From NCBI RefSeq assembly GCF_054482595.1, contig NZ_CM137008.1: DNA of 64,000 bases, one strand, 5' to 3'. This document shows, one piece after another, positions 50,301 to 53,300 of the stretch; the stretch's first letter is position 1; each line of letters begins with the position of its first letter. The position numbers were made by a program.

Positions 50301-53300
50301 GCCGCGCAGTTTTGCCAGCATTGGCTGAGCGTTCTTTACGACAAAATTGTTGGTATCAAGATTCTTCATTTCACGAAGAAGTGATTTCTTGGTTTCTTCT
50401 GACATGTAGCGAGTCTCATATGCAATATCGTAAATCCTTCCTGAAAGCTCAGAACCAATTTGCTTCATTCCTGGGTAGATGTGTTTGCACATTTGTTGAC
50501 TCTTCTCCATCCACAATTGTAAGTAGCAGAGATTAACCAGTTCTTCGTCAGTAAACTGTTTTGCAATCGGTGAGCATTCTGCCTGCCGATCCAAAATATC
50601 CAGCACCCAGCGGCGGAACTCTTTGGCTACCTGAGTGCGAGCAAACATCGCGATTAGGTGGGCACCGCGTAGTGAGAAAACACGCACTTTTTTGCGATAA
50701 TTTCCTGAGGTACTCACTTCGAGTACCTGAGTCATTCCGGCGCTAAACTCATCGCTATACTTGTTATAAATCATTGTTACTGCACGACTATTTGCGTATT
50801 TAAGTGCAGATGCAATATTAGATGATGTAAACCAAACACCATGCATATCACGGGTGGGCACCAATTCAACTCCGTGGAAGTTATAATCTGATTTTGCTAC
50901 AATATTCATGTTAGTTTCCTTGCATACGGTTACTGACATAGAGGCCCGGTTTGTGTTCACGCACTGCCGGGCTTCACTATTTTTACTGGGCATTAGCTCT
51001 TTCCTCTCTCAGGCTTTTAGCCAGTCGCTGCACAATCGCAGAGTTGATAGAAATTCCATCCATTTCAGCAACACGTCTAATCTCCTCCTTCATTCGCGCT
51101 GGCAAACGAAGCTGGAAACTTTGACTTTTACGACCTGTGTAAAGCACATCTTTCATAAGTAATCCTCCCACAATGATACCAACTTGGTTCTAGAACCAAT
51201 TTAACACCATTTATTTTGATGTCAAGTTGGTGCTATTGTTTAGCGAACATCTTTACGTTGAGGTCATATGAGCAAGTTCCCTAGTCATGAAATGGATAGG
51301 TTCAATATCAGGCTTCCTGCAGGAATGCGGGATGCTATAGCTGAACGAGCCAAACGTAACGGCAGATCAATGAACTCAGAGATTGTTCAGATACTGGAAG
51401 ATGCCTTGAATGCAGAAAATACACTCGGGGAAATAGCAGATAAAATCAACAGCGTCTCGGTTCCGCTAAATGTTGATGCGCTAGTTCAACTTCAAGCCCA
51501 GGTTATCGCCATGCAAAAAGAAATACAGGAAAAGTTCAGAGAGCAGAACGAAAAGTTGAGAGAACTGCTAAACAAAAAAACCACCTGACGGTGGGTTAAT
51601 TTTTGCCTTTTTTGGACCATATTGACTACTCATAAAATGAGATCAATATTTAATCGCCCAATAACGGGTGCATGTTGAGGTATATCATGGCGAAAAAACC
51701 AGGTGAAAACACAGGAAAAAACGGCGGAATATACCAAGAAGTTGGCCCGCGCGGAGGTAAGAAAGACAATTTTGCCACCGTCAAGGACAACGAAAGGCTT
51801 CCGCCAACAACAAAGCCAGGTCATGGCTGGGTATTAGATAAGCGAACTCCAGACAGCAAAAAGTAATAATCAAGCCGGGTCACTCCGGCTTTTTGATATG
51901 TCGCTCGCAGAACTCAACAAGCCTGCTCATTAAGTAGCAGTAAGTCTCGTTGGCTCTTCCTGGTTCAACATCAACGCCGACCCTTGAGCAGATATCGAAT
52001 GCCATGTGAGCGCACTCATGGGCAATAGTAGATAGTTTGCCATTGAACACACCTATCACATGCAAAACACCATTCTCGCTGCTCATTGTATGAGACGCTC
52101 CGTTGGCATCCGAGTCCTGCACGTCCACGCCAAGTTTTTGATGCAGGCGTTGCCATTCTGGAAAGTCTCTGCAAAACACAATTGTACCGCTCTCAAAGAG
52201 CGGAACGAGCATTTTTGGTACGTTTCCAATGTTAACTTTTTTCATGGTATCCTGCTCAAAACTAAGGAGGTTGGTGTGAAGAAAAAATTTGTAAACGTTG
52301 CAAAGTGCGCAATTTTTATATTTTTTATGACCTTTTACGGATTTAGTGCCGGAGAAGGTTTCGATCGTGATGCCAATGCATTCAGTTTCTTTTGTCTGTC
52401 TATAGTGGTCATAATTGTATGGGTGGAATTAAAGCAAACATTGTTTCATGTGCTAGGGAAATAACCATCCATGGCATTTAGTCACTGCTGTGTTGCCTCA
52501 GTGGCAAGCAGCGGTCTGATGGCATTTGCAGCGTTACTTAATGCTCTTTCATAGGCTGGCGTTCCTGCTTTGGTGTTTGCCAGACGTAAGAGCGCATTCC
52601 TGGCCATAGGGCTTTCATAAACCCTCGACATAAGGCCAATCCCTGTTTCCCCAGCCAATAGCGCGCCTCCGGTTTTTAGGTTACCAATAACCCTTACCAA
52701 AGGCGCGAGTGTCATGCCAGTCTTCGTCACAACATTAGCCTCAGATGCTCTTTTGGTAGCATCGAGAATAGATAACATCCCCTCTATCTCTTTTCCGTTC
52801 TTCCCACCAAATACAGTTTTAAACACCTGACCATTTGCTTGTTTTTGCAGCTTGCCAAGCTCGGTCATCATTTTCTGAGGGCTGTCACCTACCTTGTCAG
52901 CTATTTTGCTGATATATGCCGCCCTTAGCATGTCTTTACCTTTTTGATCGAGTTTCCCGTACAATCGAGCTATATCTGACCCATATTGTCCATACACAAT
53001 GGTATTTACAGCCTCGGGAGTTAAATCTCCTTTGTTTAGAACGTTTTTAAGGCGCGTTTGAGTTGCATGTGTTGCCATTTTTGCATAATCAGCTTTTCCC
53101 GCTCTCCATGCTGAAGCATCTTTTGGGCTAAGTCCTTTCGCTATAGATTTACTAAGGCTATTGGTTAGCGAGTTATAGACCCTGTCGACCATTGTTTGCG
53201 ACATTGATGGCAGAACTGTACGATCGCCTTTTACGTCAATGCGGAACTGAGTTCTCAGCTTATCAAGTAACTCAAAGGCATCATCTCCATTTGTTATCTC

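What the first reader, a model, noticed from the sequence alone, without database searches (positions are those of the whole stretch)
52230..52290. Two strong translation starts facing away from each other only 30 bp apart
The HExxH gene starts at 52245 on the minus strand and the candidate 62-aa ORF starts at 52276 on the plus strand with a perfect AAGGAGG. Back-to-back starts this close leave no room for independent promoters, so either one ORF is spurious, one is expressed by read-through from a distant promoter, or the plus-strand AAGGAGG is a regulatory element. A longer 134-aa plus-strand frame (52060..52464) overlaps the HExxH gene antisense and probably reflects the same signal.
Basis: seen in the sequence. 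Interest (0 to 1): 0.3.

Follow-up and report, generated by a model that had tools for sequence, protein, structure and literature searches.

The report
Phage P22 sieA expression socket, new cargo
The two back-to-back gene starts are real and belong to a known spot in P22-like prophages, where a fixed ribosome-binding site and start codon normally drive the superinfection-exclusion gene sieA; here they drive a different, uncharacterised 62-residue membrane protein.

Summary
A 121-aa gene starts at 52245 (-), a 62-aa ORF starts at 52276 (+), and 30 bp separate them.

- **Location:** the "ant moron" of a P22-like prophage, between ejection gene 16 and the tailspike.
- **Match to P22:** window 51600-52278 is 97.5% identical to P22. 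Homology ends exactly at the GTG, which is P22's sieA start codon.
- **Promoter:** P22 annotation places a putative PsieA at window 52215-52245, inside the first 11 codons of the opposing gene.
- **Opposing gene:** HK620 hkcC (100% identical protein). It is co-oriented with the late operon and lies directly downstream of gene 16, so it needs no promoter in the gap.
- **Both genes are under purifying selection.** The 134-aa frame is a spurious upstream extension.
- **Only the plus-strand Shine-Dalgarno is strong:** -12.7 kcal/mol against -5.3.
- **The socket is general:** in 87 loci the same spacer, Shine-Dalgarno and start are followed by 11 unrelated single-ORF cassettes. All are membrane, secreted or lipoprotein-like, and only SieA is characterised.
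- **The 62-aa family:** 61-66 aa, two predicted helices. In all eleven loci inspected it is convergent with, and within about 45 nt of (once overlapping), the 3' end of gene 16. It is unannotated in all four GenBank phage records that carry it.

Overall this is a known architecture with a new cargo. No promoter here was tested.

The parts
51880..52245 (-). hkcC, a 121-aa gene with an invariant HExxH motif and unknown function. It is co-oriented with the late operon.
   Evidence: - The protein is 100% identical to HK620 'hkcC: unknown' and matches PHROG 1365 at E=1.4e-39.
- Homologs reach down to 43% identity with length kept at about 120 aa; H76, E77, H80 and N99-E100-T101 are invariant.
- Against a 77%-identical homolog, differences by codon position are 21/14/68.
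- Across 38 alleles in 87 loci there are 25 synonymous and 5 nonsynonymous polymorphic sites.
- The AlphaFold2 model is confident (pLDDT 89), but no zincin fold was matched.
52250..52253 (-). Weak or ordinary Shine-Dalgarno (AGGA) of hkcC, 4 nt before its ATG.
   Evidence: Read from the sequence. The anti-Shine-Dalgarno duplex is -5.3 kcal/mol, matched or beaten by 12.6% of random 20-mers.
52246..52275 (.). 30-bp spacer between the two start codons. It is nearly invariant across loci and serves as the left joint of the cassette slot.
   Evidence: - In 87 loci only the dinucleotide at 52255-52256 varies commonly.
- The spacer is kept with the 62-aa gene in four contexts that lack hkcC: phiv205-1, L087, L088 and L089.
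- In UPF_BP1 only the stretch from AAAACTAAGGAGG onward is kept.
52215..52245 (+). Equivalent of the putative PsieA annotated in P22 (TTGGTA, 19-nt spacer, TTTCAT). It lies inside hkcC codons 1-11.
   Evidence: - Taken from the annotation of AF527608 and NC_002371, mapped through alignment A1.
- It is weak by consensus.
- 85 bp upstream of the start sufficed for sieA function ectopically (PMC10883804).
- It has not been mapped experimentally in anything I could read.
52245..52253 (+). Alternative candidate promoter core: an extended -10 element, TGgTATCCT. This is inferred only.
   Evidence: - Position-weight scan score 7.4, below the shuffle median of 9.6.
- Retained where DNA to the left is replaced, but absent in UPF_BP1.
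- The same bases are the complement of the hkcC Shine-Dalgarno, so retention does not settle which function is conserved.
52263..52271 (+). Very strong Shine-Dalgarno, TAAGGAGGT. It is the P22 sieA Shine-Dalgarno.
   Evidence: The duplex is -12.7 kcal/mol; none of 3000 random 20-mers reaches it. It is identical in P22, SE1 and E. coli prophages.
52276..52278 (+). GTG start codon, positionally identical to the P22 sieA start. Homology to P22 ends immediately after it.
   Evidence: Alignment A1 and the P22 annotation. Serratia homologs have ATG at the same codon.
52276..52464 (+). 62-aa predicted helical-hairpin membrane protein of unknown function (PHROG 21338), occupying the sieA slot.
   Evidence: - PHROG 21338 at E=4.3e-45.
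- Homologs at 79-82% identity are exactly 62 aa, in Salmonella and Serratia.
- dN/dS (ω) is about 0.3, the lowest of the six frames.
- The family extends to about 32-42% identity at 61-66 aa, with K10, F14, M18, G22 and W49 invariant.
- In all eleven loci inspected it is convergent with gene 16 and ends within about 45 nt of that gene's stop; in L099 the two overlap by 4 nt.
- AlphaFold2 predicts two helices, residues 2-25 and 29-59, at pLDDT 87.
- PGAP calls it in one of the three E. coli genomes inspected (not called). It is unannotated in all four GenBank phage records that carry it.
52060..52275 (+). Upstream part of the '134-aa' frame, antisense to hkcC. It is not a gene.
   Evidence: - In hkcC homologs this antisense frame has dN/dS (ω) of 1.2-2.3 and 2-7 stop codons.
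- Contexts lacking hkcC have unrelated sequence here.
- Database 'proteins' of 86-103 aa share only the 62-aa core.
52482..54347 (-). Gene 16 (ejection / DNA-transfer protein). It forms the right border of the slot, and its stop codon lies 17 nt from the stop of the 62-aa ORF.
   Evidence: ORF list, RefSeq annotation as 'DNA transfer protein', and the gap statistics.
51872..51891 (.). Hairpin between the 3' ends of the orf59a-like gene and hkcC, annotated as t-mnt in P22. It has a T-run on the plus strand only.
   Evidence: Terminator scan and P22 annotation.
51687..51866 (+). orf59a-like 59-aa gene, convergent with hkcC. It travels with hkcC as a pair.
   Evidence: PHROG 3202 at E=7e-31 and P22 orf59a. 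The same pair occurs in Klebsiella, Rosenbergiella and metagenomic prophages.

Best explanation
**What it is.** This is the hkcC / sieA-slot junction of a P22-like (Lederbergvirus) prophage. It lies in the variable 'ant moron' between ejection gene 16 and the tailspike gene.

**Plus strand.**
- The 30-bp spacer, the very strong Shine-Dalgarno and the GTG are the expression signals that drive sieA in P22.
- Here they drive a different single-ORF cargo: a 62-aa two-helix membrane protein.
- It is probably transcribed in the lysogen from a weak promoter overlapping the first codons of hkcC and/or the spacer.
- Where co-directional genes lie upstream, it may instead be transcribed by read-through from them.
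- The strong Shine-Dalgarno compensates for a weak promoter and a GTG start.

**Minus strand.**
- hkcC is a real gene with an ordinary Shine-Dalgarno.
- It needs no promoter in the gap. It sits directly downstream of genes 7-20-16 on the late-operon strand.
- It is most likely transcribed by PLate read-through, which runs antisense across the cassette.
- The two genes would therefore be separated in time (lysogen versus late lytic growth), not in space.

**The slot.**
- The conserved joint on the left and the 3' end of gene 16 on the right define a slot.
- Whole ORFs for envelope proteins are exchanged in that slot among phages.
- By position, by membrane location and by analogy with SieA, the 62-aa protein most likely acts at the inner membrane against incoming P22-like phages.

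**What is shown and what is inferred.**
- Shown here: the identity of the signals, the reality of both genes, and cassette exchange.
- Inferred: the promoter positions, the timing of expression, and the function of the 62-aa protein.
For: **Identity with the P22 signals**
- Window 51600-52278 is 97.5% identical to P22, and the match stops at the GTG.
- P22 annotation puts the sieA start at that GTG and PsieA at the equivalent of 52215-52245.
- 85 bp of upstream DNA plus sieA gave at least a 10^7-fold drop in P22 plating from a single ectopic copy (PMC10883804).

**Cassette exchange**
- In 87 loci the joint is followed by 11 unrelated ORF families. All carry an N-terminal hydrophobic segment, a signal-like sequence or a lipobox.
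- The slot ORF usually ends -4 to +24 nt from the gene 16 stop.

**Both genes are real**
- 62-aa gene: dN/dS (ω) about 0.3; length and start conserved; family reaches about 35% identity; in all eleven loci inspected it is convergent with, and within about 45 nt of, the gene 16 stop.
- One stand-alone member has its own TTGGAA-17-TAAGAT promoter-like site and an AAGGA Shine-Dalgarno.
- hkcC is under purifying selection.

**hkcC and late transcription**
- hkcC is co-oriented with structural genes in P22-like, siphovirus-like and phage L contexts.
- No terminator-like site lies between gene 16 and hkcC.
- No promoter-like site scores above the shuffle median on the minus strand inside the cassette.
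- PLate transcription is reported to traverse the ant moron to reach the tailspike gene (PMC2629481).
Against: - No transcription start has been mapped. Both candidate plus-strand promoters are weak by consensus and score below the shuffle median.
- Synonymous polymorphism in hkcC is not depleted over the annotated promoter, so there is no signature of dual constraint.
- The TGgTATCCT element is missing in UPF_BP1.
- The Leavitt construct was co-oriented with the gal operon, so read-through there is not strictly excluded.
- The 62-aa family shows no detectable homology to SieA and no hit in PADLOC.
- It occurs next to very different gene 16 types, which argues against a type-specific interaction.
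Confidence: 0.75

Rival explanations
1. The plus-strand gene has no promoter of its own at the junction. It would be transcribed by read-through from Pmnt (mnt, orf59a, a leaky t-mnt hairpin, then antisense through hkcC). The conserved 30 bp would then be only a translation signal and a recombination joint.
For: - Neither local promoter candidate passes a consensus scan.
- In UPF_BP1, L088 and L090-L093 the 62-aa gene lies just downstream of co-directional genes, with different or no spacer sequence.
- There is no extra synonymous constraint over the annotated PsieA.
Against: - A hairpin with a T-run (t-mnt) lies between orf59a and the slot on the plus strand.
- sieA with only 85 bp upstream is fully active ectopically.
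- The stand-alone family member in L100 carries its own promoter-like site.
Confidence: 0.2
2. hkcC has its own promoter inside the 5' part of the cassette. The two genes would then have face-to-face overlapping promoters and interfere with each other transcriptionally.
For: - Morons typically carry their own promoter.
- The hkcC-orf59a pair moves as a unit into other phage types.
Against: - The DNA upstream of hkcC beyond 30 bp differs in every cassette type, so no conserved promoter can lie there.
- The best minus-strand matches inside the 62-aa ORF score no more than 6.9, against a shuffle median of 9.6.
- hkcC is always co-oriented with late genes.
Confidence: 0.15
3. The 62-aa ORF is a non-functional remnant left after loss of sieA. 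It would be kept open only because it sits behind a strong Shine-Dalgarno.
For: - It is short and has no Pfam, NCBIfam or PADLOC match.
- PGAP skips it in two of the three E. coli genomes inspected, and all four phage records leave it unannotated.
Against: - It is unrelated to SieA, so it is not a fragment of it.
- Length, start and stop are conserved across E. coli, Salmonella and Serratia, with dN/dS (ω) about 0.3.
- Members at 32-42% identity keep two helices and invariant residues.
- It occurs behind four different Shine-Dalgarno sequences in at least eight left contexts.
Confidence: 0.04
4. The plus-strand AAGGAGG is a regulatory element acting on hkcC or on the late transcript, rather than a ribosome-binding site for a gene. 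Examples would be a pause or standby site, or an antisense element.
For: - It is unusually strong.
- It lies only 19 nt from the hkcC start.
Against: - In all 87 loci it is followed at fixed spacing by a start codon and an ORF of at least 62 aa.
- It travels with the 62-aa gene where hkcC is absent.
- No Rfam family matches the region.
Confidence: 0.03

Closest known systems
P22 sieA locus: PsieA, ribosome-binding site and sieA, divergent from hkcC, within the 'ant moron' between genes 16 and 9
   Same: - The DNA is 97.5% identical up to and including the start codon.
- It has the same divergent partner (hkcC), the same neighbours (orf59a, mnt, arc, ant, gene 16), and the same orientation relative to the late operon.
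   Different: - The coding body is not sieA. It encodes 62 aa against 164 aa, with two predicted helices against three predicted transmembrane segments.
- No sequence or profile similarity to SieA was found.
SieA superinfection-exclusion proteins (types A, B and C; Leavitt et al. 2024)
   Same: - Both are small predicted membrane proteins.
- Both are encoded on the strand opposite the late operon, next to gene 16, in P22-like prophages.
   Different: - The two are not homologous.
- The SieA motif FxRYPxEAxxFNK is absent. A pairwise BLASTP match to that region (E=0.28) is not supported by the profile search.
- The function of the 62-aa protein is untested.
Phage 'morons' and mosaic joints at gene boundaries (Hendrix, Juhala, Casjens)
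   Same: - Alternative, unrelated genes occupy one position between conserved flanks.
- The region is already described as being in rapid flux, with ten types in sixteen genomes (PMC2629481).
   Different: - Here the exchange unit is a bare ORF that reuses a resident promoter, Shine-Dalgarno and start codon, rather than bringing its own.
- In 10 of the 11 families the joint is at the start codon. In the lipoprotein cassette it is inside the Shine-Dalgarno.
HExxH zinc metallopeptidases (zincins), as a possible identity for hkcC
   Same: HExxH is invariant on a long helix, and a conserved Glu (the NET motif) lies on the next helix.
   Different: - No peptidase Pfam or NCBIfam hit.

Membership tests
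P22 sieA expression signals (putative PsieA + Shine-Dalgarno + GTG) | Sequence identity with the P22 region upstream of sieA, up to the start codon | tested here: met
   97.5% identity over window 51600-52278, and the alignment is identical through AAGGAGGTTGGTGTG.
P22 sieA expression signals (putative PsieA + Shine-Dalgarno + GTG) | Position: divergent from hkcC, and convergent with gene 16 across the slot | tested here: met
   ORF map and annotations.
P22 sieA expression signals (putative PsieA + Shine-Dalgarno + GTG) | Promoter activity in the lysogen | not testable with these tools
   There is only a putative annotation and the ectopic 85-bp construct reported in PMC10883804. Consensus scans are weak.
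SieA protein family (PHROG 7745) | Sequence homology to SieA types A, B or C | tested here: not met
   BLASTP E=0.28. A profile search of 1.84 billion proteins returned only 61-98-aa relatives and no SieA. The PHROG assignment is 21338, not 7745.
SieA protein family (PHROG 7745) | Three or four transmembrane segments and the cytoplasmic motif FxRYPxEAxxFNK | tested here: not met
   Two helices are predicted. The motif is not conserved in the family alignment.
SieA protein family (PHROG 7745) | Blocks DNA injection by P22-like phages | not testable with these tools
   This needs plating and K+ efflux assays.
Moron (independently expressed insert in a phage operon) | Present or absent, or replaced, between conserved flanks when relatives are compared | tested here: met
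   11 alternative families occupy one slot in 87 loci. The region is described as the 'ant moron'.
Moron (independently expressed insert in a phage operon) | Its own promoter and terminator | tested here: inconclusive
   The cassette brings neither; it reuses the resident signals. No terminator-like site follows it. The stand-alone member in L100 has its own promoter-like site.
PHROG 21338 (62-aa family) and PHROG 1365 (hkcC family) | Full-length profile match | tested here: met
   E=4.3e-45 over residues 1-62, and E=1.4e-39 over residues 1-121.
Zincin metallopeptidase (for hkcC) | HExxH motif conserved across homologs | tested here: met
   H76, E77 and H80 are invariant in 16 sequences reaching down to 44% identity.
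Zincin metallopeptidase (for hkcC) | Zincin fold or peptidase-family profile match | tested here: not met
   [not shown]

The most novel reading that the evidence does not exclude
The hkcC-gene 16 interval may be a plug-in expression socket: a resident weak promoter, a near-perfect Shine-Dalgarno and a start codon. P22-like prophages would use it to swap bare ORFs for envelope proteins.

- Eleven families were seen here, and only SieA is characterised.
- The 62-aa hairpin family sat next to gene 16 in all eleven loci inspected, even where it is the only gene between gene 16 and the tailspike. It could be a new, minimal superinfection-exclusion protein acting on the gp16/gp20 DNA-delivery conduit or on its inner-membrane partner.
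Probability: 0.3. Interest if true: 0.55.

Novelty: new member of a known kind. Interest (0 to 1): 0.3.

Why it matters
**For annotation.**
- The 62-aa gene is a real small membrane-protein gene that is routinely missed. It is unannotated in all four GenBank phage records that carry it, and PGAP called it in only one of the three E. coli genomes inspected.
- hkcC is missing from the P22 RefSeq record.
- The 134-aa frame should not be called.

**For biology.**
- The junction shows how a prophage can express a lysogen-phase gene head-to-head with a late-strand gene in only 30 bp.
- It does so by placing signals inside the neighbour's coding sequence and, as inferred here, by separating the two genes in time.
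- The slot lists ten uncharacterised envelope-protein families sitting exactly where the known exclusion gene sieA sits. That gives a short, testable list of candidate anti-phage or host-modifying factors.

Tried and rejected
- **Relation of the 62-aa protein to SieA.** A pairwise BLASTP hit (E=0.28) fell on SieA's conserved motif. A profile search of 1.84 billion proteins returned no SieA, so I dropped the idea.
- **A known RNA element in the region.** Rfam gave no meaningful hit.
- **A dual-constraint signature over PsieA.** Synonymous polymorphisms in hkcC are not depleted at its 5' end, so this was uninformative.
- **Consensus promoter scans.** No junction candidate scored above shuffled background on either strand, so the promoter position remains unresolved.
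- **Phage L 'orf62'** (PMC8022706). It turned out to be an unrelated 97-aa gene on the late strand.
- **Hofer et al. 1995**, the original sieA paper. It is not held in the library, so I could not check whether PsieA was ever mapped.
- **A literature search for 'hkcC'** returned only unrelated acronyms.
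Full report
**1. Observation**

- A 121-aa ORF runs 51880-52245 on the minus strand.
- A 62-aa ORF runs 52276-52464 on the plus strand and starts with GTG.
- Exactly 30 bp (52246-52275) separate the two start codons.
- AAGGAGG lies at 52264-52270, 5 nt before the GTG.

The motif alone is not remarkable: there are 3 copies in the window against about 5 expected by chance.

Its pairing strength is remarkable. TAAGGAGGT forms a 9-bp duplex with the anti-Shine-Dalgarno at -12.7 kcal/mol, which none of 3000 random 20-mers from the window reaches. 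The minus-strand site (AGGA, 4 nt from the ATG) gives only -5.3 kcal/mol, like its neighbours. So there is one very strong start and one ordinary start, not two strong ones.

**2. Where this is**

The surrounding ORFs are those of a P22-like prophage. On the minus strand lie genes 7, 20 and 16 (ejection proteins), then the 121-aa gene, then arc, two ant-like genes and the tailspike. On the plus strand lie mnt, a 59-aa gene and the 62-aa ORF. The nearest phages are JEP4, phiv205-1, UPF_BP1 and HK620.

This interval between genes 16 and 9 is the published 'ant moron'. [quoted passage not shown] The 121-aa protein is 100% identical to HK620 'hkcC: unknown'. It is present but unannotated in the P22 RefSeq record.

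**3. The junction is the P22 sieA start**

Window 51600-52278 is 97.5% identical to P22, and the match stops there. In a four-way alignment the window, P22, SE1 and an E. coli prophage are identical (bar two single-base differences) through ...CTAAGGAGGTTGGTGTG. They diverge completely from the next base.

The P22 annotation places the sieA start codon on exactly that GTG. It places a putative PsieA at the equivalent of window 52215-52245, inside hkcC codons 1-11.

Leavitt et al. inserted sieA with only 85 bp of upstream DNA at galK and obtained at least a 10^7-fold reduction in P22 plating. They called the promoter 'putative' and the start codon 'uncertain' (PMC10883804).

The premise that 30 bp leaves no room for promoters therefore fails. 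The plus-strand promoter is placed inside the neighbour's coding sequence.

**4. A cassette slot**

I collected 80 viral contigs encoding hkcC plus annotated records, 87 loci in all.
- Every locus has an ORF of at least 62 aa on the opposite strand. It starts 30 nt from the hkcC start in 66 loci, 34 nt in 19 and 37 nt in 2.
- The spacer is almost invariant.
- The ORFs fall into 11 unrelated families: SieA (164 aa), a 161-aa lipoprotein, and proteins of 129, 109 (two types), 106, 99, 75, 68, 149 and 62 aa.
- Ten of the eleven families diverge right after the shared start codon. The lipoprotein cassette joins inside the Shine-Dalgarno and brings its own ATG.
- All have an N-terminal hydrophobic segment, a signal-like sequence or a lipobox.
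- Apart from SieA, none has a known function. Eight of the nine others scanned match only PHROGs of unknown function and one matches none; the single Pfam match above its cut-off is YobH-like, for the 68-aa protein.
- The slot ORF usually ends -4 to +24 nt from the gene 16 stop. The slot therefore holds one tightly fitted ORF.
- Among complete E. coli genomes, 320 of 5426 carry the module, and 14 carry it with the 62-aa cassette.

**5. The 62-aa ORF is a gene**

- It matches PHROG 21338 full length.
- Relatives at 79-82% identity in Salmonella and Serratia are exactly 62 aa.
- Serratia copies use ATG where the window has GTG, and four different Shine-Dalgarno sequences precede the family.
- dN/dS (ω) is about 0.3 in its own frame, the lowest of the six frames. 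This rests on only 21-24 differences per pair.
- A profile search found members at about 32-42% identity, 61-66 aa long, with K10, F14, M18, G22 and W49 invariant.
- AlphaFold2 predicts a helical hairpin at pLDDT 87.
- In all eleven loci inspected the gene is convergent with gene 16 and ends within about 45 nt of its stop; in L099 the two overlap by 4 nt.
- The left-hand contexts differ: behind hkcC; behind a lipoprotein cassette; behind Rap1a-like, Arc/Mnt-like or HTH-S24 repressor genes; or alone between the tailspike and gene 16.
- The stand-alone copy has its own TTGGAA-17-TAAGAT and AAGGA.
- The family is not tied to one gp16 type and is not related to SieA.
- It is unannotated in all four GenBank phage records that carry it. 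PGAP calls it in one of the three E. coli genomes inspected.

**6. hkcC is a gene**

- Homologs reach down to 43% identity and keep about 120 aa. H76, E77, H80 and an N-E-T motif are invariant.
- Against a 77%-identical homolog, differences by codon position are 21/14/68, and dS is saturated.
- Among 38 alleles in the 87 loci, 25 of 30 polymorphic sites are synonymous.
- hkcC and the convergent 59-aa gene also occur together in siphovirus-type prophages of Klebsiella and Rosenbergiella, between tail-tube/YdaY genes and the tape-measure gene. A distant copy lies after the lysis genes of phage L.
- In every one of these contexts hkcC is co-oriented with the late genes.

**7. The 134-aa frame**

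This is the 62-aa frame left open upstream, antisense to hkcC.
- In hkcC homologs that frame has dN/dS (ω) of 1.2-2.3 and 2-7 stop codons.
- Where hkcC is absent, the upstream sequence is unrelated.
- Database 'proteins' of 86-103 aa share only the 62-aa core.

It is spurious.

**8. How it most likely works**

*Shown here:*
- the plus-strand signals are those of P22 sieA;
- both genes are under purifying selection;
- cassettes are exchanged at this joint.

*Inferred:*
- The cassette is transcribed in the lysogen from a weak promoter that overlaps hkcC's first codons and/or the spacer.
  - One candidate is the annotated TTGGTA-19-TTTCAT (52215-52245).
  - The other is an extended -10 element, TGgTATCCT (52245-52253).
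  - The second is retained in four contexts where everything to its left is replaced, but not in UPF_BP1.
  - Both are weak by consensus.
- The strong Shine-Dalgarno offsets the weak promoter and the GTG start.
- hkcC is transcribed by read-through from gene 16.
  - No terminator-like site lies between the two.
  - No promoter-like site stands out on the minus strand inside the cassette.
  - The DNA upstream of hkcC differs with each cassette.
  - PLate transcription is reported to cross the ant moron to reach the tailspike gene.
- The two genes would thus be separated in time, with late transcription running antisense to the cassette.

*Caveats:*
- No transcription start has been mapped.
- The reported rise in sieA RNA on induction could be antisense late RNA if the libraries were unstranded. 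I could not check this.

**9. Comparison and novelty**

The architecture (hkcC head-to-head with the sieA signals) already exists in P22 and is annotated there. What this analysis adds:
- the cargo is different and uncharacterised, and it belongs to a wider family that lay next to gene 16 in every locus inspected;
- the joint is a general slot shared by eleven ORF families.

I rate this as a new member of a known kind and of modest interest. The more novel reading is a plug-in socket for exclusion-type envelope proteins, with the 62-aa hairpin as a minimal exclusion factor. It is not excluded, but it rests only on position and analogy.

Noticed in passing
window 51687-52245; L095 2501-3056, L096 2501-3063, L098 2501-3057: hkcC and the convergent 59-aa orf59a-like gene travel as a two-gene unit, tail to tail around a hairpin. 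The pair also sits in siphovirus-type prophages of Rosenbergiella, Klebsiella and a metagenome, between tail-tube/YdaY genes and the tape-measure gene. hkcC is always on the late-gene strand. The function of the pair is unknown.
   Followed up: partly
[not shown]
   Followed up: partly
L033 and L034 (spacer region); compare window 52264-52278: Two loci carry a 7-bp tandem duplication, GGAGGTTGGAGGTTGG. It duplicates the Shine-Dalgarno core and moves the start codon to 37 nt from the hkcC start.
   Followed up: no
L005 1-152, L090 2144-2491, L091 2144-2491; L006 413-949, L094 1849-2385: Other ant-moron versions carry a Rap1a/Tai-family protein or a ClpP-like protease subunit next to the same slot. 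Rap1a/Tai is a type VI secretion immunity-like family. This cargo is unusual for a P22-like late-operon insert.
   Followed up: no
window 49466-50245 and 50283-50993 (-): Two different antirepressor-like ORFs (259 and 236 aa) lie in tandem downstream of arc, where P22 has a single ant gene. The Mnt-like protein here is 106 aa against 83 aa in P22.
   Followed up: no
L087-L089 2470-2500; L003 1486-1516; L102 1490-1516: The 62-aa gene keeps the P22-type spacer and Shine-Dalgarno even where hkcC is absent. The left breakpoints cluster within 3 nt of the hkcC start codon in four contexts. In UPF_BP1 the breakpoint lies 12 nt further in. L087-L089 have AAGGGGG instead of AAGGAGG.
   Followed up: yes
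NC_002371.2 13861-14223 (locus L101 862-1224): The P22 RefSeq record does not annotate hkcC at all; only the sieA promoter and mnt terminator features lie under it. Yet the ORF is 100% identical to HK620 hkcC and is under clear purifying selection.
   Followed up: yes
window 52465-52481: Only 17 nt separate the stop of the 62-aa ORF from the stop of gene 16, and there is no terminator-like structure. Slot transcripts must therefore run antisense into gene 16, and it is unknown where they end.
   Followed up: partly
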